From: Clostridiales bacterium
GTDB taxonomy: Bacteria > Bacillota > Clostridia > Lachnospirales > CAG-274
Direction: 5' to 3'
NCBI GenBank assembly: GCA_021204175.1
Contig: JAJPZT010000075.1
Coordinates: 35,123-99,122, forward strand
DNA: 64,000 bases
Part shown: positions 27,044 through 41,550 of the stretch, piece after piece
Numbering within the stretch: position 1 is the stretch's first letter
How the letters are laid out: each line of letters opens with the position of its first letter
Notes under the pieces: generated by a model
The model's database searches: none
What the model saw: only the letters and a program-made list of their open reading frames with translations
Told to the model about the DNA's origin: nothing
Position numbers and translations under genes: made by a program

Positions 27044-27700
27044 TCAGCTTACACACAGCAGCCTGTCTCTTTGACTGCCGAATTTTTTATTGATTATTCC
27101 CAAATTAAAGCCTACCAAAAATGCGGCGACCACAGTGCCTATGCCCACACTGCCGGGACTGTGAATGGCAATGAGACAGACTATAAGAGAGGTCAAAACC
27201 ATAGTTGCGTCAAAGCAAATTTTTATTTTGGAAAACTCTGTTTTTGTTATTTTCGAAACCGCCTGTGTGGCTCCCTCGCCAGCAAGGGGCATAATATTTG
27301 CCGGAAGATAAAAGAAAATGCCTACGGCTATCAAAACAGTGCTTATAAGCACGAAAACTATTCGAATTGCCATATTGTCTACGGGAGGCAGAAAGCTAAC
27401 GAGAAAATTACACATTGTGGTAAATTTTCCGAAAAGAATACCAACAATGATTTGCAGGAGATTTACGGGCTTAAAGTCCTTTCTCAAAAGAATTATTTGA
27501 AGCAGAACCAAAAAGGCGTGAAATAAAATTGTGGCGTTTCCCATTTCCATTCCGAAAACACAGGTTATAGTGTAGGGAATTGAACTGACCGGCGATACCC
27601 CTAAATTCGACTTAACCGACAGGGCTATTCCCAAAGTCATTATAAACAGCCCGAAAATGTAAAATATAAATCTTCTTACAATCGCATTGTGCTTTGTCAT
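27044..27700 (-). CDS. YczE/YitT-like polytopic membrane protein
   Basis: About 218 aa with the SNLGVSPVSSIPY motif. Start is ATG 27700, with a GGAGG upstream. Confidence 0.55.
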   Translation of the reverse strand: MTKHNAIVRRFIFYIFGLFIMTLGIALSVKSNLGVSPVSSIPYTITCVFGMEMGNATILFHAFLVLLQIILLRKDFKPVNLLQIIVGILFGKFTTMCNFLVSFLPPVDNMAIRIVFVLISTVLIAVGIFFYLPANIMPLAGEGATQAVSKITKTEFSKIKICFDATMVLTSLIVCLIAIHSPGSVGIGTVVAAFLVGFNLGIINKKFGSQRDRLLCVS

Positions 27701-27898
27701 TGTGTTCGTTCCTCCGATTAATATTAAATATTTCATAAGCCTTCGGCGATTGATATTATAATATTAAAAATCGTGAATGTCAACTCTTTACGAATAATTA
27801 TGGGGATAAGTGCAGATTTTTATGTTTTCAGTGCATTTTTTCGGAATTGATTGCTTTTAAGAATATAAATTGATATAATTAATAAATGATTTTCGGTA

Positions 27899-27929
27899 TT
27901 GACAAGGGGGGGGTCAGAAAGCTTATAAT
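27899..27929 (+). promoter_or_regulatory. consensus -35/-10 promoter with a G8 tract in a 19-nt spacer
   Basis: TTGACA (27899-27904), then A plus G8 (27906-27913) plus TCAGAAAGCT, then TATAAT (27924-27929). Confidence 0.5.
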
Positions 27930-27961
27930 TGTTTCAATAACTGAAGAAAAGGAGGATCAAT

Positions 27962-28450
27962 ATGAAGAAAATAAGCAGAAGGATTTTCATTGCTTTGCTT
28001 ATTGTTTTGGGGGCTTTGTTTTTGGGAAAATGGGCTTTAATCAAGAGTGGTGTTTTGCTTGATTTTGATTATGCGGGGAAATATTCTTATGAAGCACAGG
28101 AGTATTTGTCGGCTTTAGATGACAGTGATTACGGCTTATATTATCCCACGTGGCTGTTGATTACCTGTGAAGAGGACTTAAAGGAAAATGAATTAGGTAT
28201 AGACCTGTCGGAAATTGATTTATCCCAAATTGATTTTGACAAGAATTATGCTGTTCTGACGCTTGGGTCAAAGCTGAGAGCCCTGCACCCCTGTAACAGA
28301 AAAAACGTTAATCTCGAAAACGAAAGCTTTTGGGCTGATGTGTATGTAAAGAAAACAGATGACAATGACACTTATATTTATAAAATCAATAAATATAATT
28401 TGGCTAAAAACCTGTTGTTTGCTCCTTCCGGAGTGTTTTGTGTGTTATAA
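27962..28450 (+). CDS. hypothetical membrane-anchored protein
   Basis: 162 aa with an N-terminal TM/signal anchor and an AAAGGAGG SD. No motif recognised. Confidence 0.5.
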   Translation: MKKISRRIFIALLIVLGALFLGKWALIKSGVLLDFDYAGKYSYEAQEYLSALDDSDYGLYYPTWLLITCEEDLKENELGIDLSEIDLSQIDFDKNYAVLTLGSKLRALHPCNRKNVNLENESFWADVYVKKTDDNDTYIYKINKYNLAKNLLFAPSGVFCVL

Positions 28451-28500: not shown

Positions 28501-29898
28501 ATGAAAAAAATATTTGTGGCGGTTTTAATTATTGTGTTGGGCTTGAATTTTATTTCGGTGTATGCTGATGACGGCGAAAGCAGTGCCGACAGCGGCGTCA
28601 ATGCGGAAGCTGCCGGCGAGACAGAGGAAACAAGCCGGGAAGAACAGGGGGAGATTATAAACTATGTTACACGCCTTGACTGTGTTTCGGAAATAATGAA
28701 AGCGGCAGGGCTTCAGGCGGACGGATATTTTTCAAGCGAATATATTACTATGGAAAAAATGTTTGAAGATGATCCCTTTTATGACAGGGAATATGCTTAT
28801 TTTGCCAAACGTACAGGTGTTCTCATAGGCGAGGAAAATGAAGCTTCGCCCACTTGGGTTAACTGCCGTCCCAACGAAACAGTGACAATAAAGGAATGTA
28901 CGGGGTTTATTATGAGAACCATTGACCCCGAAGCACAGGGAAAAACAGACGATGAGCTTTTTGAAAGCGCTAAGCTTCGAGGGCTTGTTAAGGTTGATGA
29001 CAGCTTTTATTCCGATCCCGATAAAGCTTTAAGCTATAACGATTATTATACACTGATTTGCAGAATGTTAAAAGAAAAACGTTATTTGTATTTTATATTT
29101 AACGATAATCTGGAGCCTTTTGACTGGCGCAGAGATTTTCTATGGAATAAGGCGGAGCAGTATGATGAATTGGGCGAAATGACATATTTTGAATATTTAA
29201 AGTCCTGCTGCGGAATTGACGAAAACACCCCCGAAACTGCGGCTGTAAATCAAATTATTAAAAAGCTGAACATTACAAGAATTTCACAGCTGAATTGCCT
29301 TATGGCTGTTACAAAAATCGGCGGAATGAGAGTTGAAGGGCTTTTTGAAGGCGACGACGTATTTCTTTCCGTTATGGAAGCTGCGGGTTTAAACAAGAAG
29401 GGTATGGAGCTGGCAAAAACCTTTGGCTACAGAGTTTGGAATATGCCCGACTACAGTGCTGAAACATCTGTGTTTTCTGTTGTCTACGGCATACTGCCCG
29501 ACGATGAGCCTGAAGACGAAAAAAGCTATTTCGACTATAACAAGAAGGTTAATCTGTTTTGCACAAAGGCTTCCGTTAAGGACTGCGTCTCTTATATTAT
29601 GTGGTTTCTTACGGATATGCCGCAGGATATAACTTCTGAAGAAATTTATAACCTTGCCTTACAGGTCGGGCTTGTTCAGGTGGGAGACAGCATATATGAG
29701 GATTGGGAAGAGCCCATTGACTATGTCACCTTCAAAACCCTGCTTAACAGAATGCTCAGTATGAAGAGATATAACTATTTTGAAGAGGAGAACAGCGAAA
29801 GCCTGTTTGAAGCTGAAAGATGCGACAAAAAGGGAGAGGTTACATATCTTGACTTTTTCAAAGAGATTTGCGGCTTAGAGGAAGCTCCCGAATTATAA
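28501..29898 (+). CDS. hypothetical secreted protein with an internal two-fold module duplication
   Basis: Has a signal peptide, MKKIFVAVLIIVLGLNFISVYA. Two roughly 200-aa modules each end in M(L/LS)(K/M)(E)KRY(L/N)YF...GE(M/V)TY(F/L)(E/D)(Y/F)(L/F)K..CG(I/L).E..PE. Confidence 0.55.
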   Translation: MKKIFVAVLIIVLGLNFISVYADDGESSADSGVNAEAAGETEETSREEQGEIINYVTRLDCVSEIMKAAGLQADGYFSSEYITMEKMFEDDPFYDREYAYFAKRTGVLIGEENEASPTWVNCRPNETVTIKECTGFIMRTIDPEAQGKTDDELFESAKLRGLVKVDDSFYSDPDKALSYNDYYTLICRMLKEKRYLYFIFNDNLEPFDWRRDFLWNKAEQYDELGEMTYFEYLKSCCGIDENTPETAAVNQIIKKLNITRISQLNCLMAVTKIGGMRVEGLFEGDDVFLSVMEAAGLNKKGMELAKTFGYRVWNMPDYSAETSVFSVVYGILPDDEPEDEKSYFDYNKKVNLFCTKASVKDCVSYIMWFLTDMPQDITSEEIYNLALQVGLVQVGDSIYEDWEEPIDYVTFKTLLNRMLSMKRYNYFEEENSESLFEAERCDKKGEVTYLDFFKEICGLEEAPEL

Positions 29899-29912
29899 TA
29901 ATATTTAAAGAA

Positions 29913-29945
29913 AGAGAGAGGCGGCTGAACCTCTCTCTTTTTTTG
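29913..29945 (+). terminator. rho-independent terminator
   Basis: AGAGAGAGG-CGGCTGAA-CCTCTCTCT followed by T7. Confidence 0.8.
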
Positions 29946-30239: not shown

Positions 30240-30330
30240 AATTAAAAAGAACTTAAGGTTTGTGTAAAACTTTTTTAATGAAATATTAATAAATTGTTAA
30301 ATATGATCTCTTTCATAAAATAAAAATGAA

Positions 30331-30339
30331 GGGGGGGGG
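30331..30339 (+). repeat. G9 homopolymer 5 nt upstream of the adhesin TTG start
   Basis: Counted directly from the sequence: ATGAA-GGGGGGGGG-CTCGG-TTG. Confidence 0.8.
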
Positions 30340-30344
30340 CTCGG

Positions 30345-33300
30345 TTGGGCAGAAAAAATCAGTCGGAAGACAAATATTTTAAAAAACAAAGACGTAAAAA
30401 ACTATGGCACCGTTTGCTTTTGGCAGCCGGTTCCATTGTTGTGTTTATAACCACTTATATGCTTATCCTCCCTGCCATAACCGCTGAGGTGGGCTCAATC
30501 GAGCTTTTCGACGAGTCCCTTTCCTCCGGCAGCGCAGTAACCCCCGTCGAAGACGAAACCTACATTATTATAGAAGAAACTACCGAAGAAACGGTTGAAG
30601 AAACCACCGAGATTATATCTGAAGAAACAACAGAAGACCCGTCTGAAGCCCTTTCCGAAGAAACCTCTGACCAAGCCTTAGAGGAAACTACATCGGGAAC
30701 AAGCTCCGGCGGCACAGATACCTCCGGCGGCGAAACTTCCGAAGAAACTGCCGAAGCTGCCACAGATGAGGTCTCTGAGGAAATAACCGAAGAAGCAGCG
30801 GAGGAAACTACTGAAGAGGAGTTTGTTATAACAGCCGACAGTATGATTTATGCTCTTCTGGGCGAAGCAGGCATAGCTCTCACAAGTGAAGAGGACGGAG
30901 AAGAAGAGGAAGACGACGGCTCAATCGAGCTTACCCTTACCGCCACAGTCAGCGGCAGCAGCTATTATACTGACACATATGGCACTGAAATATCATTCAG
31001 AGGAACGGGAACAAACGACAGCTATAACTGTGAATATGACCCTGACACAGGTAACTTTTCCGTAGACCTTGCTATCGACTTTGTAATGTCAGCTGCGATT
31101 TTGACAAGCGGCAATGTAACCGATTATAACAACGACACTCTTAACGGCAGCTATTACGGAGTTTATTCAATCGATTTACCTGAGGGAATTATAGTTCCCG
31201 ACAATGTTCTTAACAAACGTTACGAAGGCGTTATTTCCGGAACAAGCACCGTACTTTTTGACCTTTATTTTGAGAAATATACAGACGAAACTACCGGAGC
31301 AACTCGCTACAGAGTTTATATGGGCTTTTTAAACAGCCAGATAACAGGTAATGAAGAGACAATCAAAGGTACAATCAGCCTTGAGGGCTACATCAGCTCA
31401 TCCAGCTACAGCGACGGCAGCGTTGTCGTAACGGTAGGCGGTGAAAATGTTATTGAGATTTCACCGGATGAAATAACCTACAGCAGCGGCGAAACCATAG
31501 ACGAGGATATTTACGTTAAAAAATCAGGCTCTTACAACACAACCACAGACGAAAGCGGAAACACTACATCAACAGTCAGCTACACTGTTATGGTTTATAC
31601 CAAAAAGGGTACGGGTGAAACCATAACCCTGACCGACAGCTTTACTACGGAGTTTTCTTCTTCCGTTTTGTCTGACCCTTCAAGCAGCCTTCAAAGCATA
31701 ACCGTAAGCACAGGCACAAACACAGCCTATGTTTACTGGGAGGGCAAAGCAGATAATTTTAATGACAGCGAATTTGTAGAGGATACAGAAAGCCCCATAA
31801 CTCTTACTAATGGCACAGGAAACTACACTTATTATTATGACATCGACGGAAATTTGGTTATTACTCTTCCCGGTCTCAGTGATGTAGACGGCAAAGACGG
31901 ACAGGAAACCATTCTTGGCAGCAGTGACTGGAGATATTCAAAGGAAGATGTTGAGGTTTATTATGTAACCTACACCTATAAGGTAAGCCCTCAATATTCT
32001 GACTCCACTGCCAATAACACCGTTAAGGCTTCAACAGAGGACACAACAGCAGTCGAAACCATAACCGACACCTCCTCTGCTGAGGTTACCGTATCCAAAA
32101 AGACCGCCATTTCAAAAACAGCGGAATATTATACCGAGACAGACAGCGACGGCAATGAAAACGGCTATATAAAATGGACTATTGTAGTGGGCGACGGCTC
32201 AGCCTCTCTTGCAGGCTATACCCTGACGGATACAATGTTCAGCTCCGTCGGAGGAATAGAAGCCCTCAATTATAGTTCATTATATGAAAATGTTCATGTT
32301 TATACCGGCTCTTCAGAAGATGACAGCAACTTTGTTTATCAATACTATCCGGCGAACTGTTTTAGTATTGTAGATGAAAACGGCGTATTAACAGGCATTA
32401 AATTTCTCGAAGATGCCGAAAGTCAATATACAATCGTCTATACAACAGAAGCTTCTTCGTGGGATCAAACATATTTATCCAACACGGCTACCCTTACCCC
32501 CACAGAAAGCACAGACCCCGATGTTACATATACCCACGATTACGGAGATTCGAGCTTGTCGGCAGGCACAGAGGTTACTGTTCCTGCGGCAGGGGGCGAC
32601 ACCCTTGACAAAAAGATAGGCACTCCCGAATTATCCTCTGACGGAAAAACCTATACCTTTCCCTGGACTGTAACCATAACCATTCCCACAGGGGGCATAC
32701 CCGCCGGGTCTGAAATCGAAGACAGCCCCAGCACGGATAACCACTATATGACCTATGACCAGGCTAAGGCTCTGGGTGAGCTTGTTCACGAGGTTTTCGG
32801 CGACAACACCTACGTCTCCGTAACCTTCAGAAACAGCAGCTGGCAGTGGATTCATATAGACAACCTTGACGAAAGCACTTATTATTACGGCTATAAAATA
32901 ACCTTTAATAAAGCTGTAGCCTATGAAACCTATTCACAATATACAAATCTGACCGAAGATAATAAGCAGAGTTTAGGCTTAATTGACAGTTTCACCTACA
33001 CATCGGGCGACACCACTGCAACAGCCTCATATGATCATTATGACAACAAGGTTACTTTAAACTACTACTCCACAGGCTCAATATCCGACAGTCCCGCTTC
33101 AAGAACCTTTTCAAACACAGTCAGCGGCGGCGGCAGCTATAAGTCGGCTTCATACACTTATACAAATAATGTGGTTAAATACGGCTATTATCAGTCTCAC
33201 GGAACTGCCACAAGCCCCTACGCCACAAGCTTTACATCGACTGACGGCGAGGTCTCATGGGTAGTTAAGGTAGTTTTAGATACCTCCAACAACTGTTATA

Positions 33301-36300
33301 CCATAACGGATACTCTGCCCACAGGGGTCACTCTGAAAAAACTTCAGGTTTCAAACAGCGCATCAGATTCCAACAGCAAGTCAACACTGTATGCGGAAAC
33401 AACCACCGTTGATCCCTCTGTTGAAACCACCACAGCTGACCCCTCGACGGAAACAACTACCGCAGACGCCGGAATTTCCGAAGGGGAAACCCTTTCGGGA
33501 ATATATGACGGTGACTTAGATGTTTCCTACACGCTGGGCACAAGCGACAATACCGTTACGGTTTATGCCAATTACGGTGAAAATGCCAATGCAAGCAGCA
33601 TAACCCTTTATCTTTTCTATACCTGTCAGATAGCCGATGACTATCAAGGCGAAAATACTGCTTTTAATAACACTGTAAAAGTAAAAAATACTACTACCGA
33701 CAAAGACTACGGCTCAGGCTCTCAAACCACAACGGTATATTGGGATGTCTCTACGGGAACGGAAACAAAAACCGTCTCAAAGGATGACTATTTCGACACC
33801 AACAACAACAAAATAAAATACGCCATAACCATAGACAATGACAACGGAAACCCGTATACATATACTGTGACAAATGAAGACGGCTCAACAAGTCAGGAAT
33901 ATGACGACGATATGGTGATTTACGACGTCCTTTCCTACAACAGCTACCCCACCTACGGTCTTGTAAGAAGCGCAAGCCTTCAAAGCGACACCCTTAAGGT
34001 ATATGTAGACGACGGAACGCTGACCATAGCCGAAGACAAAACAGTCAGCGGCGGAACAGAGCTTGATTCGTCTCAATACAGCTGGACTCTTGAAAAGGTG
34101 GTCAACACCGGCTATGACGGAACGGAAGCCGTAGTTCAGACAATAAAGGTTACTTTGCCCAATGACGGAAGAAAATATGTTTTAGCATATGCATATAAAA
34201 TATCTATCATTACAGACGAAGTTTGGGCGAATAACTACACCTGGATCGACAACGACGGCACTGACGTAAAGGCTCACGCCACAAACTACGCCTATCTCAC
34301 CGTAAACGGCGAAACCAAAGTAACAACAGACTCAATTGAAACAACGGAATCCTATAACTTTGATTCGGTATCAGCCGAAGGAAGTACGGGTACGGGCTAC
34401 ACAATATATAAGGTTGATAAAGACAATTTCGCCCTGAAGCTTGAGGGAGCAACCTTTGACCTCTATGTTTATAACAAGGACGCTACCCCTGTAGGCTTTG
34501 AAAAGGTAGCAAGCATAACCACCAATTCAAAGGGCACAGCAAGCATTTCCGGCGTTATAAAATATTTGGACACATCTACGGGAACTTATTATGACCAAAA
34601 AGGCGATAACTGGGAACCTTACTACAGAATAACAGACCCCTCAGACAGCTCAAAATACATCTATATTCCCATAAACACACTCTGTTATTTTGTAGAGTCT
34701 GAAGCACCCACAGACTATCAGCTTGACGGAACAAAATATTATTTCTATTACGGCGAAACCATAGCCACTCTTTTAACAAGTGTTACAGGTCACGAATATG
34801 CCACTGACGTAACAGAAGCCGTAAATATTATTTTGGGCAATTCGGAGTATATCACTAACGGCCACACAGTGGATTATTACTCTGAAAAAACAAAAATTTC
34901 CGTTATAAAGTCATGGACGAATAACGAAGAAGACCCTAACGACACATACGAAAAAACCGACGACAGCCTTAACTTCACACTTTACAGAATCCGCAAGGAC
35001 TTAGACGGAAACTATTGGCCTGAAGAAGATGATGAGGACGAAACGTCTACCTCTGAAGGAGCAACGGAAGCCACAACCGAAGTGGTTACAGTAGGAGAAA
35101 TACCTTGGCAAGTAGATTTTCAGTGGAGTACAAATGTTGCTTCAGGAACTGTCGGGTATACAGAAAACACTAATTCATTAAAACTATCTTTATATCATCA
35201 ATATGCAGCTATAAATGAATCTGCCGGATATATATGGTATCCGGGGGTAACAATAACTGACGGAAACAGTAATGTTTTAGTAGAATATACTGGGTCGTCT
35301 TATGGTGAGGGTACGCTTGTAAGCGGCAATGGTTCTTGGACGGGTTCAACGACCAGTGCTGTAGGAGGTACATTTACAGCCACGATTAACCTAACAGATT
35401 CTGTTAAAGAAAAAGGCTTGATAATTAAACTTACCGATACTAACAATAGCGACACAGAAATATCTGTTTCTTTTGCTCTGTCAAGTGCTTCTGCCACAAC
35501 CACCACAGAAGCGGCTTCCGAGGCCTCTACCGAAGAAGTTTCAGAAGTCTCAACGGAAACCACCACCACAGTCCTCTATGCTCACGTTTTCCAAGACGAC
35601 GTAATAGAGACCACCACAGACGAACAGGGTAACTCCGAGGTGGTGGGGCACACCTTTAATAACGATTATAAGGATTATGAAAAGATAACCGATTCAAGTG
35701 AAAACTTCTTCAAATTCTACGGGGCTTTGACCGACACAAACGGCTCACAAACCTACAACGCTTACAAAGCCAACACAGCCACGCTGCTGACCAGATCCTT
35801 CAAGATGCAGACCAACGTAGACAGCGTCGTGGGCTCAGGCTCAACGACGATTGAATTCACTTCTCAATTGGGCGGTGTGCTGACTATGGTTTTCACAGAT
35901 AAAACCGACACCAACGCAGTAATTATTAACAGCTCCGACGGAACATCTCTAAACAAAACGGCGTCTAACTATAAGCTTCAGTGTCACCTTGACGCAGGCA
36001 GCTACACCATAAAAAAGAGTACATCCTCTTATGTAGTTTACATCTCCTTTGAAGAAGGAGCAGGGGATACATCCTCAGACGGCAACTCCGAGATTTTGAA
36101 CTTCAACGACGGCACAAAAGCCAACGACTTCTTTACTGTCAGCGGCTCCACAACCAGCAGCTACGGCGAGGTTACATATGTAAACTACTACGACACAAGC
36201 TTTACAAGTGCGACAGCTCTGAAAATGGGTTCTTCCTCGTCAATTACCTTTGAAAGCGCAAACGCAGGCACTCTCTATATGGTTTTCACAAACCCCAAGA

Positions 36301-38951
36301 AGGCTGCCTCCGTAGGCGCAAGTATCGACGGTAACGAACACAAGGCGTCAATCACCGACACAACCACCACAGACGGCGAGTATTATATATATGTGCTTTC
36401 CACATACATTGAAGCCGGCAGCCACACAATTAAGAGAATAGGCTCTACCGAATACCTTCTTTATTACATTCAGTTTGTTCCCGACGATTTCGGAAGCGGC
36501 GAGTGGAAGGAGCTTAACACTGACATAACCTCTATTGGCAAGAAAGTCAGCACCTTTACAATAAGCTACGCTTCAAACTGGCGGTGGACCTCAGAAAGTC
36601 TGCCAAGCCAGTGGATTAATGAAGAAACAGGCGAGGTTTTAGGCTACTACGAATATTACGTAGTTGAAGAAAGCCGCTATGACCCTCAGGACTCTTCAAA
36701 ACAGTGCTTCTATACCCTTTATATGAATAATGAGGGTATCGTCTCAGGCTCAATTAAGGTTTCAAACCGTATTAACCCCACTACAAGCGGCGTTGTGAGC
36801 CTTGACGTAAACAAGGTTTGGTATCAGGACGGAAAACAGCTGACATCACCGACAATTGACGACTACTCCGTTTCCTACACACTTTACAGAAAGGTCGTTC
36901 TTCTTTCCTCAACCGATCAGGACACAGGCGGAACTTATTCGGTGAACTTCGACAACAACATTTCCACCTTCTTCACCACAACGGGCACAACCCAGTCCGG
37001 CTCTTCAACCATAGGCACAGGCAACTACGGCGGCACGTCATACTCAACCACTCTTGCTTTTGACAGCACTTCAAGTACAGCCCCAAGCATAGCCTTTGAC
37101 ACCTTAGCCGACAGCGGCGTCCTGACCCTTGTTTTCAGTACGTACCTTCCGCCGGATGTCTATAACTCAAGCTCAAGCTATACCTCCGGCACTACAAACT
37201 ATGTCACCGCCGACGGAACTAACTATTATGCTATTTCTGATGACAGCGGCACTTTGAACAATACATTATATGTTGTTGACAGTTCTTCCTCAAGTGGTTA
37301 TAAGGAATGGGACGGCTCCGGTACATCTATAACCTATTATGCATTCTTTAACGAGAATTTGCAGGTTGATGAAAAGTATACAAGTGATACGAGCTGGAAT
37401 GATGATGATTTTACTTATACAGGCGACACAGACGATACAAGTAAGTTAGTACAGATTTATCAGTATACTGCAAATTCAATAGATGCTACTATGTATCGTC
37501 AAACTGATGCAAATAAGTTCGACAGAAGTAACGGTAACGGAAAAACCTATACTCTTGCAAGAACAAACAGTAACAGCAGTACTACTGATCCTAACAATTT
37601 TACAAGAATAAGAAATAATACATTAACCACAACCGTTGACGAAAAAACCGTAACCGGCGATGGAAAGTGTATAAATCTCTACAGAAGTACTGATGGCGGA
37701 AAAAGCTTCGTATCTATGGAGGGATATACTATAGACGAGGTTAAGGATCAGGAAACGGAAATTAACAACAGCCGTGCCTACTACATAAAGTCAGGCGACA
37801 GCTACATCCAAACCGACGGCAAATTCTACACCCTTCAGCAGTACAACACTGTGGGCTACGCCTTTACCCTGACTGTCCCCGGAGAAACATCAACTGTTTA
37901 TCAGTATGTTTATAACCCGGACACCGAAACCCTGACCATAACCGCAGGCGGCTCGGAGGTTTACAGCGGTTCAATTTCAGACTGCCCCGCAGCTTATCTC
38001 ACAAGCCTTGACATAGACGAAGACAACAACACTGTGGTCTTTGAAATTCCTCTAAGTGTCTACACGGGAGACTACTCAAGCGGCTATAAGGTGGGCTGTG
38101 TAAGCTCGGCTCTCTGTTATCTCTATTATGCCGAATATTTCTATAAGTATAATGACGCTAAAACCGGTATTGCCGTAGGCACAGGCACACTTGACGCCTC
38201 TAACGACTGGTCTGAAGAGTGGAGCAGTCTTACCTACCCCGTTTATGACGCAGAGGGCAACGGCACAATTATAGGCTATTATTCCTATTACATTGTGGAA
38301 ACCTCAGCCGACGGCGAAACGGGAACAACCTATTCGCCCACATATTCAGTCACTATGTATACTCAGGCTCTTGATTCTGACCTTGCTGACCTTGCGGAGA
38401 CGTATAAAGCGACGCTTACTCCTGATGAGAACACTTCAGCAGGAACAACGGCTTACTATAATAGTGATAGTGAACTTATTTATACTGAAACGGCAACAAC
38501 TGACGGCGAGGGTGTTACAACCTACACATATACGGCTTCAAGCGGTGAAACAATTTCGGATATTACAACATATCTTCTTAATTTGTATCTCGAAACTCTT
38601 GAAACCGATAAAGATTCCGAGGGCAATATTACCTATTGCAATACAACCCGTGATCCTAACGATAACTCTGTAATAAGCTCGCAGACGGTTTTGTATTATC
38701 AAGTCTCTGACGGAAACTATTATATCGTTTCATCTGTCAATGACGGCACAAGCTTAACGGCTGCTACCGCAGAAGCCGCTAAAATCAGCAGCTTCACAAT
38801 CACCAACACGGTGGAGGTTCAGGACGTTGTTCTGCCCTCAAGCGGCGGAGACGGCGGATTTAAGTATATTTTAGCAGGAACGCTCACAAGCCTTGGGGCG
38901 ATTCTGCTTCTATATAAATGCAGGAAAGGTTTGAGCACAAACTCCCGATGA
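30345..38951 (+). CDS. giant (2868 aa) sortase-anchored surface adhesin, pilus tip-adhesin candidate
   Basis: Has a basic N-terminus plus TM signal and an E/T-rich acidic linker. Repeated Cna-A-like K...W.I.V modules are present. SpaA/Cna-B-like modules occur (GATFDLYVY...YFVESEAPTDYQL; KISVIKSW...; LDVNKVW...). The C-terminal sorting signal is LPSSG (38832-38846) plus a hydrophobic helix plus KCRKG. Confidence 0.85.
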   Translation: MGRKNQSEDKYFKKQRRKKLWHRLLLAAGSIVVFITTYMLILPAITAEVGSIELFDESLSSGSAVTPVEDETYIIIEETTEETVEETTEIISEETTEDPSEALSEETSDQALEETTSGTSSGGTDTSGGETSEETAEAATDEVSEEITEEAAEETTEEEFVITADSMIYALLGEAGIALTSEEDGEEEEDDGSIELTLTATVSGSSYYTDTYGTEISFRGTGTNDSYNCEYDPDTGNFSVDLAIDFVMSAAILTSGNVTDYNNDTLNGSYYGVYSIDLPEGIIVPDNVLNKRYEGVISGTSTVLFDLYFEKYTDETTGATRYRVYMGFLNSQITGNEETIKGTISLEGYISSSSYSDGSVVVTVGGENVIEISPDEITYSSGETIDEDIYVKKSGSYNTTTDESGNTTSTVSYTVMVYTKKGTGETITLTDSFTTEFSSSVLSDPSSSLQSITVSTGTNTAYVYWEGKADNFNDSEFVEDTESPITLTNGTGNYTYYYDIDGNLVITLPGLSDVDGKDGQETILGSSDWRYSKEDVEVYYVTYTYKVSPQYSDSTANNTVKASTEDTTAVETITDTSSAEVTVSKKTAISKTAEYYTETDSDGNENGYIKWTIVVGDGSASLAGYTLTDTMFSSVGGIEALNYSSLYENVHVYTGSSEDDSNFVYQYYPANCFSIVDENGVLTGIKFLEDAESQYTIVYTTEASSWDQTYLSNTATLTPTESTDPDVTYTHDYGDSSLSAGTEVTVPAAGGDTLDKKIGTPELSSDGKTYTFPWTVTITIPTGGIPAGSEIEDSPSTDNHYMTYDQAKALGELVHEVFGDNTYVSVTFRNSSWQWIHIDNLDESTYYYGYKITFNKAVAYETYSQYTNLTEDNKQSLGLIDSFTYTSGDTTATASYDHYDNKVTLNYYSTGSISDSPASRTFSNTVSGGGSYKSASYTYTNNVVKYGYYQSHGTATSPYATSFTSTDGEVSWVVKVVLDTSNNCYTITDTLPTGVTLKKLQVSNSASDSNSKSTLYAETTTVDPSVETTTADPSTETTTADAGISEGETLSGIYDGDLDVSYTLGTSDNTVTVYANYGENANASSITLYLFYTCQIADDYQGENTAFNNTVKVKNTTTDKDYGSGSQTTTVYWDVSTGTETKTVSKDDYFDTNNNKIKYAITIDNDNGNPYTYTVTNEDGSTSQEYDDDMVIYDVLSYNSYPTYGLVRSASLQSDTLKVYVDDGTLTIAEDKTVSGGTELDSSQYSWTLEKVVNTGYDGTEAVVQTIKVTLPNDGRKYVLAYAYKISIITDEVWANNYTWIDNDGTDVKAHATNYAYLTVNGETKVTTDSIETTESYNFDSVSAEGSTGTGYTIYKVDKDNFALKLEGATFDLYVYNKDATPVGFEKVASITTNSKGTASISGVIKYLDTSTGTYYDQKGDNWEPYYRITDPSDSSKYIYIPINTLCYFVESEAPTDYQLDGTKYYFYYGETIATLLTSVTGHEYATDVTEAVNIILGNSEYITNGHTVDYYSEKTKISVIKSWTNNEEDPNDTYEKTDDSLNFTLYRIRKDLDGNYWPEEDDEDETSTSEGATEATTEVVTVGEIPWQVDFQWSTNVASGTVGYTENTNSLKLSLYHQYAAINESAGYIWYPGVTITDGNSNVLVEYTGSSYGEGTLVSGNGSWTGSTTSAVGGTFTATINLTDSVKEKGLIIKLTDTNNSDTEISVSFALSSASATTTTEAASEASTEEVSEVSTETTTTVLYAHVFQDDVIETTTDEQGNSEVVGHTFNNDYKDYEKITDSSENFFKFYGALTDTNGSQTYNAYKANTATLLTRSFKMQTNVDSVVGSGSTTIEFTSQLGGVLTMVFTDKTDTNAVIINSSDGTSLNKTASNYKLQCHLDAGSYTIKKSTSSYVVYISFEEGAGDTSSDGNSEILNFNDGTKANDFFTVSGSTTSSYGEVTYVNYYDTSFTSATALKMGSSSSITFESANAGTLYMVFTNPKKAASVGASIDGNEHKASITDTTTTDGEYYIYVLSTYIEAGSHTIKRIGSTEYLLYYIQFVPDDFGSGEWKELNTDITSIGKKVSTFTISYASNWRWTSESLPSQWINEETGEVLGYYEYYVVEESRYDPQDSSKQCFYTLYMNNEGIVSGSIKVSNRINPTTSGVVSLDVNKVWYQDGKQLTSPTIDDYSVSYTLYRKVVLLSSTDQDTGGTYSVNFDNNISTFFTTTGTTQSGSSTIGTGNYGGTSYSTTLAFDSTSSTAPSIAFDTLADSGVLTLVFSTYLPPDVYNSSSSYTSGTTNYVTADGTNYYAISDDSGTLNNTLYVVDSSSSSGYKEWDGSGTSITYYAFFNENLQVDEKYTSDTSWNDDDFTYTGDTDDTSKLVQIYQYTANSIDATMYRQTDANKFDRSNGNGKTYTLARTNSNSSTTDPNNFTRIRNNTLTTTVDEKTVTGDGKCINLYRSTDGGKSFVSMEGYTIDEVKDQETEINNSRAYYIKSGDSYIQTDGKFYTLQQYNTVGYAFTLTVPGETSTVYQYVYNPDTETLTITAGGSEVYSGSISDCPAAYLTSLDIDEDNNTVVFEIPLSVYTGDYSSGYKVGCVSSALCYLYYAEYFYKYNDAKTGIAVGTGTLDASNDWSEEWSSLTYPVYDAEGNGTIIGYYSYYIVETSADGETGTTYSPTYSVTMYTQALDSDLADLAETYKATLTPDENTSAGTTAYYNSDSELIYTETATTDGEGVTTYTYTASSGETISDITTYLLNLYLETLETDKDSEGNITYCNTTRDPNDNSVISSQTVLYYQVSDGNYYIVSSVNDGTSLTAATAEAAKISSFTITNTVEVQDVVLPSSGGDGGFKYILAGTLTSLGAILLLYKCRKGLSTNSR

Positions 38952-39405: not shown

Positions 39406-39415
39406 GGGGGGGGGG
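39406..39415 (+). repeat. G10 homopolymer in the pilin-1 leader
   Basis: Counted directly. It lies 70 nt upstream of ATG 39486. Confidence 0.8.
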
Positions 39416-39485
39416 TAGATTTAGCCGGCCCGTATTAATCGGAAGCGTTTATCAACCTCCACAACTAAGAAAGGATGGTACTTTT

Positions 39486-41467: not shown

Positions 41468-41474
41468 GGGGGGG
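41468..41474 (+). repeat. G7 homopolymer in the pilin-2 leader
   Basis: Counted directly. It lies 76 nt upstream of ATG 41551. Confidence 0.8.
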
Positions 41475-41550
41475 TAATCGATACGTTAAGGAAACCGTTT
41501 AACGTTTATCGTCCTCCACAAAAAAATCCACAAAGAAAGGACAGAATAAT

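What the first reader, a model, noticed from the sequence alone, without database searches (positions are those of the whole stretch)
27899..27929. G8 tract inside the 19-nt spacer of a perfect TTGACA / TATAAT promoter
Seen in sequence. The arrangement is TTGACA (27899-27904), then A plus GGGGGGGG plus TCAGAAAGCT (19 nt), then TATAAT (27924-27929).

A 19-nt spacer is 1-2 nt beyond the 17 +/- 1 optimum. Loss of one or two G residues would turn a poor promoter into a near-ideal one. This is the classical design of phase-variable promoters such as porA/opc poly-G/C and Bordetella fim poly-C.

The promoter precedes 27962..28450 (membrane-anchored) and 28501..29898 (secreted, internally duplicated). 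Neither has a recognisable domain.

Caveats:
- A second promoter-like match, TTGCTT-17-TATAAT at 27851-27879, could provide constitutive expression.
- The G count may be affected by homopolymer errors in the assembly.
Basis: partly seen in the sequence, partly recalled or inferred. Interest (0 to 1): 0.65.

Follow-up and report, generated by a model that had tools for sequence, protein, structure and literature searches.

The report
Poly-G tract in a consensus promoter spacer
A run of eight Gs stretches an otherwise perfect promoter two bases beyond its optimal spacing, upstream of two envelope or secreted-protein genes next to a pilus gene cluster in an uncultured gut Clostridia bacterium; it is most likely a slippage-driven expression switch of an already known kind, although length change was seen only at sister G runs, not at this one.

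Summary
It is not chance. The window holds 4 perfect TTGACA/TATAAT pairs against 0.09 expected, and the other three all have 17-nt spacers. Near-consensus promoters also peak sharply at 17 nt.

The promoter heads a discrete two-gene unit, closed by a strong terminator, that encodes a membrane-anchored 162-aa protein and a secreted 465-aa protein. The unit lies beside a sortase-pilus island carrying three more sense-strand G tracts (G9, G10, G7).

In other assemblies of the same strain (99.86-100 % identical), two sister tracts change length: G10 to G9 and G7 to G10. These are the only indels in 4.2 kb, so G runs are hypermutable in this organism. The target tract reads G8 in every reliable assembly. 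A single G9 sits at an error-prone contig tip.

An orthologous gene in a related MAG has a normal TTGACA-17-TGaTATTAT promoter with no homopolymer.

Verdict: a plausible spacer-length switch of the porA / tp0126 type. It is currently in a low or off state, and G6-G7 would restore optimal spacing. This makes it a new member of a known kind. Switching at this tract is not demonstrated, and an upstream extended -10 promoter could blunt the effect.

The parts
27899..27904 (+). -35 hexamer TTGACA of promoter P2
   Evidence: Read. It is one of 4 perfect TTGACA/TATAAT pairs in the window against 0.09 expected.
27906..27913 (+). G8 homopolymer inside the 19-nt spacer (27905-27923)
   Evidence: G8 is also present in independent contig L016, and contig L001 starts with G8TCAG.
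27924..27929 (+). -10 hexamer TATAAT of promoter P2
   Evidence: It ends 33 nt before the ATG at 27962.
27851..27879 (+). Upstream promoter candidate P1: TTGCTT, 17-nt spacer, TGaTATAAT (extended -10)
   Evidence: 9/12 matches plus the TG. Its predicted +1 is about 27886.
27950..27955 (+). Shine-Dalgarno AGGAGG, 6 nt before the ATG at 27962
   Evidence: Read.
27962..28450 (+). Gene for a 162-aa protein with an N-terminal TM helix and a beta-rich domain; function unknown
   Evidence: No Pfam or NCBIfam hit. Only 3 family members among 5.8 billion proteins. Low-confidence structure model and no fold match.
28501..29898 (+). Gene for a 465-aa secreted protein; a tandem duplication of a roughly 200-aa module of unknown function, with only a weak SLH-like signal
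29906..29945 (+). Intrinsic terminator closing the two-gene unit
   Evidence: 16-bp stem, dG -21.1 kcal/mol, z -4.45, followed by a T run.
30331..30339 (+). Sister tract G9, 5 nt before the TTG start of the 2868-aa CBM77 adhesin gene (context)
   Evidence: It is G9 in L001 as well.
39406..39415 (+). Sister tract G10, 71 nt upstream of the pilin-1 ATG (39486); length-polymorphic (context)
   Evidence: G9 in same-strain contig L019. It lies within ACGACA-16-TAGATT.
41468..41474 (+). Sister tract G7, 77 nt upstream of the pilin-2 ATG (41551); length-polymorphic (context)
   Evidence: G10 in L019 and G7 in L020.

Best explanation
P2 is a genuine housekeeping-sigma (sigma-A/sigma-70 type) promoter for a two-gene envelope/secreted-protein operon, and its -35/-10 spacing is set by a slippage-prone G run. 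At G8 the spacer is 19 nt, 2 nt beyond this organism's 17-nt optimum, so the hexamers are misphased and transcription from P2 is low. Loss of one or two Gs by slipped-strand mispairing during replication would give 18 or 17 nt and raise transcription stepwise. Gain of Gs would silence it further. The result would be heritable, reversible, graded (volume-control) variation in expression of the 162-aa and 465-aa proteins. This would run alongside independently varying G tracts in the adjacent sortase-pilus island.

Shown: the anatomy, the non-random promoter, the 17-nt native optimum, and the hypermutability of sister G tracts in the same strain.

Inferred: that P2 fires, that expression tracks G number, and that this tract itself varies at a useful rate.
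For: 1. The hexamers are exact and the spacer is 19 nt with G8.
2. Perfect pairs number 4 against 0.09 expected, and the other three have 17-nt spacers. Matches of 11/12 or better peak at 17 nt, 9 against about 0.7 expected, with other spacers near background.
3. The geometry is compact and typical: -10, then 20 nt, AGGAGG, 6 nt, ATG. A strong terminator follows the second gene, so this is a self-contained unit.
4. The 162-aa orthologue in a related MAG (L014) is driven by TTGACA-17-TGaTATTAT with no homopolymer. The tract is therefore a lineage-specific addition to a normal promoter.
5. Long G runs are enriched while short ones are depleted. All four are on the sense strand, directly upstream of surface-protein genes within 14 kb.
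6. In same-strain contigs the only indels in 4.2 kb are G10 to G9 and G7 to G10.
7. In one sample both 11-kb Logan contigs end exactly at the target tract. In the same or a sister sample, G7, G9 and G10 tracts are traversed, which hints at within-sample heterogeneity.
8. There are no inverted repeats, so this is not an invertible switch.
9. Precedents: porA 11G/10G/9G gives high, 2.2-fold lower and 13-fold lower expression (PMC3639595). T. pallidum tp0126 poly-G gives optimal transcription at a 17-nt spacing (PMC7864442).
Against: No trustworthy length variant of this tract was seen. It is G8 in the window and in L016, even though the sister tracts differ between those same two sources. The one G9 (L017) is at a contig tip, and that contig also has an A7-to-A8 frameshift at its other tip.

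The predicted ON lengths (G6-G7) are short for a contingency tract, so ON states would be less mutable.

P1 (TTGCTT-17-TGaTATAAT), 45 nt upstream, could give constitutive transcription and mask P2.

Only the target, among 30 G tracts examined in this clade, is bracketed by a strong consensus promoter. The spacer design is therefore not the clade's general solution.

Contig breaks at G tracts can be an Illumina artefact ('G's end', PMC9187656).

No TSS or expression data exist.
Confidence: 0.5

Rival explanations
1. This is a fixed, weak or decaying promoter. P2 is, or was, a real promoter, and the G8 run is a stable sequence feature that merely sets low constitutive expression. There is no biologically meaningful switching at this tract.
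For: G8 is identical in every reliable assembly, including the two sources whose sister tracts differ. G8 is at the low end of tract lengths known to be highly mutable. The only variant is unreliable.
Against: Perfect 12/12 hexamers are retained around an over-long spacer, which argues for selection on a state in which the promoter works. A G7 sister tract changed to G10 in the same strain, so tracts of this length do slip here. Both Logan contigs of one sample break exactly at this tract.
Confidence: 0.25
2. P1 is the operative promoter, and the tract lies in the transcribed leader. Transcription starts at about 27886 from the extended -10 promoter, which puts G8 at about +20 to +27 of the 5' UTR. 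Any effect of tract length would then be post-transcriptional. One route is an ORF starting at ATG 27886, which would be leaderless. In the G8 frame it reads across the RBS and start codon of the 162-aa gene. In the G7/G10 and G6/G9 frames it stops before them.
For: TGaTATAAT with a 17-nt spacer from TTGCTT is a credible Firmicute promoter. ATG 27886 lies 7 nt after that -10 element. The frame consequences were computed. A 13-nt direct repeat (TTTTCGGwATTGA) precedes both -35 regions, which suggests that P1 and P2 are duplicates.
Against: The P1 -35 matches only 3 of 6 positions. The small ORF has no Shine-Dalgarno sequence and no conservation that could be tested. There is no C-rich partner or terminator between the tract and the gene. 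This reading does not explain why perfect P2 hexamers flank the tract.
Confidence: 0.15
3. The tract is an assembly or sequencing artefact: the G run or its length is an error of the source assembly.
For: Homopolymer miscalls and G-tract artefacts are common (PMC9187656). Contigs break here.
Against: An independent assembly from another run spans the tract with exactly G8, and a third contig begins with G8TCAG.
Confidence: 0.03

Closest known systems
Neisseria meningitidis porA (poly-G) and opc (poly-C) promoter-spacer phase variation
   Same: A homopolymeric G/C run lies wholly between the -35 and -10 hexamers. Single-nucleotide slippage changes the spacer length and gives graded expression of a surface protein: porA 11G high, 10G 2.2-fold lower, 9G 13-fold lower (PMC3639595).
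   Different: Here the organism is a Gram-positive-type gut Clostridia MAG. The tract is shorter, and the predicted optimum (G6) lies below the usual hypermutable range. Both hexamers are perfect consensus. A second upstream promoter candidate exists. No tract-length or expression data exist for this locus.
Treponema pallidum tp0126 and tpr/tprL poly-G promoters
   Same: A poly-G of about 7-11 nt lies within the promoter of putative surface-protein genes. For tp0126, transcription is best when the tract brings the -35/-10 distance to 17 nt. Several such tracts are scattered over one genome (PMC7864442).
   Different: The phylum (spirochaete) and the cargo differ. In T. pallidum the tract variability and the dependence of reporter activity on tract length were measured; here they are inferred.
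Bifidobacterium breve UCC2003 sortase-dependent pilus G-tract switch
   Same: Both are gut commensals in which G tracts associated with sortase-pilus clusters vary in length within a population. That paper also mentions G tracts in promoter spacers (PMC9187656). The window's island likewise has G tracts at the adhesin and pilin genes, and two of them vary.
   Different: The characterised Bifidobacterium switch is intragenic: a frameshift in the first pilus gene. The target tract here is intergenic, in a promoter spacer, and controls a non-pilin two-gene unit beside the island. The organism is a 43 % GC Clostridia, not an actinobacterium.
Mycoplasma hyorhinis vlp poly-A and Haemophilus influenzae hif TA-repeat promoter switches
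   Same: A repeat in the -35/-10 spacer sets expression of surface antigens or fimbriae. This comparison rests on established knowledge; the hif case is summarised in PMC9187656.
   Different: The repeat unit (A or TA) and the taxa differ. In hif the repeat sits between two overlapping divergent promoters.

Membership tests
Repeat-in-spacer phase-variable promoter (porA / opc / tp0126 / vlp type) | A homopolymer or short repeat lies entirely between recognisable -35 and -10 hexamers | tested here: met
   G8 at 27906-27913 lies inside the 19-nt spacer between TTGACA and TATAAT. The bracket scores 12/12, which fewer than 0.1 % of control positions reach.
Repeat-in-spacer phase-variable promoter (porA / opc / tp0126 / vlp type) | The hexamers form the functional promoter, with a TSS mapped downstream of the -10 | not testable with these tools
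   Support is statistical and positional only: 4 perfect pairs against 0.09 expected, a 17-nt native optimum, and correct distance to the RBS and ATG. A rival upstream promoter exists.
Repeat-in-spacer phase-variable promoter (porA / opc / tp0126 / vlp type) | The tract length varies within or between populations of one strain | tested here: inconclusive
   Target: G8 in the window and L016, at least 8 in L001, and G9 only at an unreliable contig tip in L017. Sister tracts in the same strain do vary, 10 to 9 and 7 to 10.
Repeat-in-spacer phase-variable promoter (porA / opc / tp0126 / vlp type) | Expression changes with tract length and is optimal near a 17-nt spacer | not testable with these tools
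   This needs reporter fusions or in vitro transcription with G5-G10.
Repeat-in-spacer phase-variable promoter (porA / opc / tp0126 / vlp type) | The controlled genes encode surface-exposed or secreted products | tested here: met
   The 162-aa protein has an N-terminal TM helix and the 465-aa protein has a signal peptide. Neither has a known domain.
Bifidobacterium-type intragenic G-tract switch of sortase pili | [quoted passage not shown] | tested here: not met
   The target tract is intergenic. For the neighbouring adhesin tract (30331-30339), ATG 30326 would be in frame only at G8 or G11. However, it lacks an SD, and a TTG start 5 nt after the tract is conserved in 3 species, so that case is inconclusive.
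Invertible-promoter switch (fim / cwpV type) | Inverted repeats flank the promoter segment | tested here: not met
   No flanking inverted repeats occur in 27600-28100, only short AT-rich palindromes.
Leader-peptide attenuation switch (Streptococcus gallolyticus Pil1 type; recalled from memory) | A repeat lies inside a translated leader ORF, followed by a terminator before the structural genes | tested here: not met
   There is no terminator between the tract and ATG 27962. The ORF from ATG 27886 has no SD. For the sister pilin tracts, the upstream ATGs are not conserved in L025 and L031.

The most novel reading that the evidence does not exclude
The target may be one arm of a clade-wide, multi-tract contingency system in uncultured gut Clostridia. 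Sense-strand Gn tracts sit at a conserved position, 73-86 nt upstream of pilin start codons, in several species. They are usually followed directly by TAA or TAG, and they vary within a strain. Most are not inside any recognisable sigma-A spacer, so they might act through a mechanism not yet described for sortase pili, for example frame-dependent leader translation, reiterative transcription, or a regulator that reads the tract. The neighbouring G8-promoter operon would then be co-varied as an accessory envelope module.
Probability: 0.15. Interest if true: 0.65.

Novelty: new member of a known kind. Interest (0 to 1): 0.45.

Why it matters
Repeat-driven phase variation has mostly been studied in pathogens such as Neisseria, Haemophilus, Campylobacter and Treponema, and among commensals in Bifidobacterium. 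If this switch is real, strictly anaerobic gut Clostridia relatives of Ruminococcus also use hypermutable G runs to diversify their surface within a clonal population. The affected features would include a sortase pilus whose giant tip protein carries a pectin-binding CBM77 module, plus a neighbouring envelope operon.

That has three consequences. It matters for understanding colonisation and substrate attachment. It affects how MAGs are interpreted, because contigs break at these tracts and the consensus tract length hides population states. It also provides a clean test case, because a perfect consensus promoter should respond to G number in a directly measurable way.

Tried and rejected
- Two JGI metagenome scans for the promoter flanks (both flanks with a variable gap, then the left flank only) found nothing, so this species is absent from that collection.
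- An Rfam scan of the whole window found no known RNA family.
- Homologues of the 465-aa protein (about 60 % identity) lie in unrelated contexts without G tracts and say nothing about the promoter.
- Structure prediction gave low confidence for both cargo proteins (pLDDT 51 and 61). The fold search, PDB sequence search and NCBIfam scan gave nothing significant. Only a weak SLH hit appeared in single family members.
- L017's G9 was first taken as evidence of polymorphism. I rejected it after finding a second homopolymer change, a coding frameshift from A7 to A8, at the contig's other tip.
- I rejected the idea that all G tracts of the clade sit in promoter spacers. Only the target scores 12/12 and the pilin-1 type scores 8/12; the rest look like controls.
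- I rejected a leader-peptide or uORF reading for the pilin tracts, because the upstream ATGs are not conserved in sister species.
- I rejected an invertible promoter.
- The window's species is not among the GTDB representatives, so no further same-species genome was available.

Full report
**Observation**

The sequence at 27899-27929 is exactly as described. TTGACA is followed by a 19-nt spacer made of A, eight Gs (27906-27913) and TCAGAAAGCT, and then by TATAAT. An AGGAGG ribosome-binding site (27950-27955) lies 6 nt before the ATG at 27962.

It additionally carries an extended -10 TG (TGaTATAAT), which makes it a more credible promoter than the hexamers alone suggest.

**Is it more than chance?**

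Yes.

- Perfect TTGACA-N15-21-TATAAT occurs four times in the 64-kb window against 0.09 expected from dinucleotide shuffles. The other three all have 17-nt spacers.
- With one mismatch allowed, matches pile up at a 17-nt spacer, 9 against about 0.7 expected. Every other spacer length stays near background. The organism's housekeeping promoter optimum is therefore 17 nt, and this promoter exceeds it by two bases, both of which lie in a G run.
- G/C runs of 8 or more are over-represented (3 against about 0.95 expected). Runs of 6 or more are depleted (7 against 15.7), which is the usual signature of selected contingency tracts.
- Fewer than 0.1 % of random control positions in this clade's DNA are bracketed by a 12/12 promoter.
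- The tract is not an assembly artefact. An independent Logan contig from another run spans it with G8 (L016), and a further contig starts with G8TCAG (L001).

**Context**

The promoter heads a discrete unit:

- a 162-aa protein with an N-terminal transmembrane helix (27962-28450);
- a 465-aa protein with a signal peptide (28501-29898);
- a strong intrinsic terminator at 29906-29945 (dG -21.1 kcal/mol, z -4.45).

Neither protein has a Pfam or NCBIfam domain. The 162-aa family has three members and the 465-aa family six among 5.8 billion clustered proteins.

A profile search of 1.84 billion representatives shows that the 465-aa protein is a tandem duplication of a roughly 200-aa module. That module usually occurs alone in secreted proteins of 220-240 aa, with about 200 representatives. 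The module itself is uncharacterised, and only single members give weak SLH hits. Structure models were of low confidence and the fold search found nothing significant.

Immediately downstream lies a sortase-dependent pilus island:

- a 2868-aa adhesin with CBM77 modules and an LPSSG-type sorting signal;
- two backbone-pilin paralogues;
- two sortases;
- a Cna_B minor pilin.

The nearest genomes are uncultured Clostridiales and Ruminococcus MAGs. The window's own species is not among the GTDB representatives.

**Sister tracts**

The window contains three more long G runs. All are on the sense strand, within 14 kb, and sit at the 5' side of island genes:

| Tract | Position | Location |
|---|---|---|
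| G9 | 30331-30339 | 5 nt before the adhesin's TTG start |
| G10 | 39406-39415 | 71 nt before the pilin-1 ATG |
| G7 | 41468-41474 | 77 nt before the pilin-2 ATG |

The Logan contigs from three sequencing runs belong to the same strain, 99.86-100 % identical over 1.3-5 kb. In contig L019, the only indels across 4.2 kb are G10 to G9 at the pilin-1 tract and G7 to G10 at the pilin-2 tract, alongside two substitutions. This is direct evidence that G runs of 7-10 nt are hypermutable in this organism.

Sister species carry G8-G11 tracts at the same position, 73-86 nt upstream of their pilin genes. For the pilin-1 type, the tract lies in ACGACA-(6 nt + Gn)-TAGATT. That gives spacers of 15, 16 and 17 nt for G9, G10 and G11.

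**The target tract itself**

Here the evidence is weaker.

- The tract is G8 in the window and in L016, even though those two sources differ at both pilin tracts.
- In run SRR15221345, two 11-kb contigs end exactly at the tract from either side (L015, L001).
- G7, G9 and G10 tracts are traversed in the same or a sister run. G-run length alone therefore does not force a break, which hints at within-sample heterogeneity at the target.
- Illumina artefacts at G tracts are documented, however (PMC9187656).
- Contig L017 ends in nine Gs, but it also has an A7-to-A8 frameshift at its other tip. I therefore discount it.

**Comparative promoter evidence**

The 162-aa orthologue in a related MAG (59 % identity, L014) is preceded by TTGACA, a 17-nt spacer and TGaTATTAT, with no homopolymer. 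The gene family is thus normally driven by a standard 17-nt promoter. The G run is a lineage-specific feature that over-lengthens it.

**Mechanism**

The best-supported reading is a repeat-in-spacer promoter.

| Tract length | Spacer | Predicted activity |
|---|---|---|
| G6 | 17 nt | Optimal |
| G7 | 18 nt | Intermediate |
| G8 | 19 nt | Poor, hexamers misphased |
| G9 and above | 20 nt or more | Further reduced |

Slipped-strand mispairing would move the promoter stepwise between these states, giving graded and reversible expression. The closest experimentally defined analogues are:

- porA, where 11G, 10G and 9G give high, 2.2-fold lower and 13-fold lower expression (PMC3639595);
- T. pallidum tp0126, where transcription is optimal at a 17-nt spacing (PMC7864442).

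The steps that remain inferred are that P2 fires, that output tracks G number, and that this tract varies at a useful rate.

Three caveats apply. The ON lengths are short for a contingency tract. P1 could supply constitutive transcription. Among 30 G tracts examined in this clade, only the target is bracketed by a strong consensus promoter.

**Rivals**

- A fixed weak promoter with no switching.
- P1 as the operative promoter, with the tract in the leader. This includes a speculative leaderless ORF from ATG 27886, whose frame relative to the 162-aa RBS depends on G number.
- An artefact, which is largely refuted.
- An invertible element, which is excluded by the absence of flanking inverted repeats.
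- A leader-peptide attenuation model, which fails because no terminator lies between the tract and the gene, and because the upstream ATGs at the sister tracts are not conserved.

**Novelty and score**

The design is a known kind, here in a new taxon and setting, so I classify it as a new member of a known kind. The wider picture is the more interesting lead: several independently varying G tracts decorate a sortase-pilus island that is conserved across uncultured gut Clostridia. Two literature searches found no description of this for this group. The Bifidobacterium pilus G-tract switch is the nearest precedent. Interest is 0.45.

Noticed in passing
window 39406-39415 and 41468-41474; L019 257-265 and 2318-2327; L020 2055-2061: The G tracts upstream of the two backbone-pilin genes differ in length between assemblies of the same strain: G10 against G9, and G7 against G10 against G7. 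They are the only indels in 4.2 kb of otherwise 99.86 % identical sequence.
   Followed up: yes
window 30326-30347; L031 263-282; L025 1-12: The G9 tract sits between an ATG (30326) and the TTG start of the 2868-aa CBM77 adhesin. The tract, a 5-nt gap and the TTG are conserved in three species. The ATG is out of frame in both species where it is visible and would be in frame at G8 or G11. The G run may simply serve as the Shine-Dalgarno sequence for the TTG start. Contig L025 begins inside this tract.
   Followed up: partly
L021 4046-4054 and 1839-1847; L025 9074-9082 and 11055-11063; L031 8863-8873 and 11084-11091; L081 9927-9934; L094 9928-9935: Related species carry sense-strand G8-G11 tracts at a conserved position, 73-86 nt upstream of pilin start codons, often before each pilin paralogue. 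In the pilin-1 type the tract lies in ACGACA-(6 nt + Gn)-TAGATT, giving spacers of 15-17 nt.
   Followed up: partly
window 39416-39418 and 41475-41477; L030 16415; L046 10234 and 12909; L086 11776; L091 2298: Seven of about eleven independent G-tract families are followed immediately by TAA or TAG. This is far more than composition predicts. Neither a -10 element (TAnnnT fits only about half) nor a conserved upstream ORF explains it.
   Followed up: partly
window 41483-41505 (also in L025, and duplicated in L031): A conserved palindrome, ACGTTAA-N9-TTAACGT, lies in the pilin-2 leader between the G tract and a conserved CTATCGTCCTCCAC motif. It could be an RNA hairpin or an operator for a dimeric regulator.
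   Followed up: no
window 27838-27850 and 27890-27902: A 13-nt direct repeat, TTTTCGG(A/T)ATTGA, precedes the -35 regions of both promoter candidates, 52 nt apart. This suggests a local duplication of the promoter's upstream half.
   Followed up: no
window 27755-27783 (- strand): A perfect TTGACA-17-TATAAT promoter faces the other way and drives the divergent DUF6198 membrane-protein gene. The likely true start of that gene is the ATG at 27700, which has a GGAGG site, not the longer ORF start at 27736.
   Followed up: partly
L012 8787-8794 (- strand gene 7191-8870): A related MAG has a G8 run about 76 nt inside the 5' end of a 560-aa beta-helix surface-protein gene. This looks like a classic intragenic frameshift switch, and it shows that the clade uses G tracts more widely.
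   Followed up: no
window 30345-38951 (protein residues 1917-2042): The giant pilus-island protein carries CBM77 (pectin-binding) modules and an LPSSG-type sorting signal. This suggests a plant-polysaccharide-binding pilus tip adhesin.
   Followed up: no
window 28501-29898: The 465-aa secreted protein is a tandem duplication of an uncharacterised module of about 200 aa. The module has about 200 representative relatives, mostly single-module proteins of 220-240 aa. Its conserved pattern resembles SLH repeats but does not meet Pfam thresholds.
   Followed up: partly
L001 position 1, L015 position 1, L020 position 1, L025 position 1: Public short-read assemblies repeatedly break exactly at these G tracts. 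MAG fragmentation and consensus tract lengths at such loci should therefore be read with caution.
   Followed up: partly
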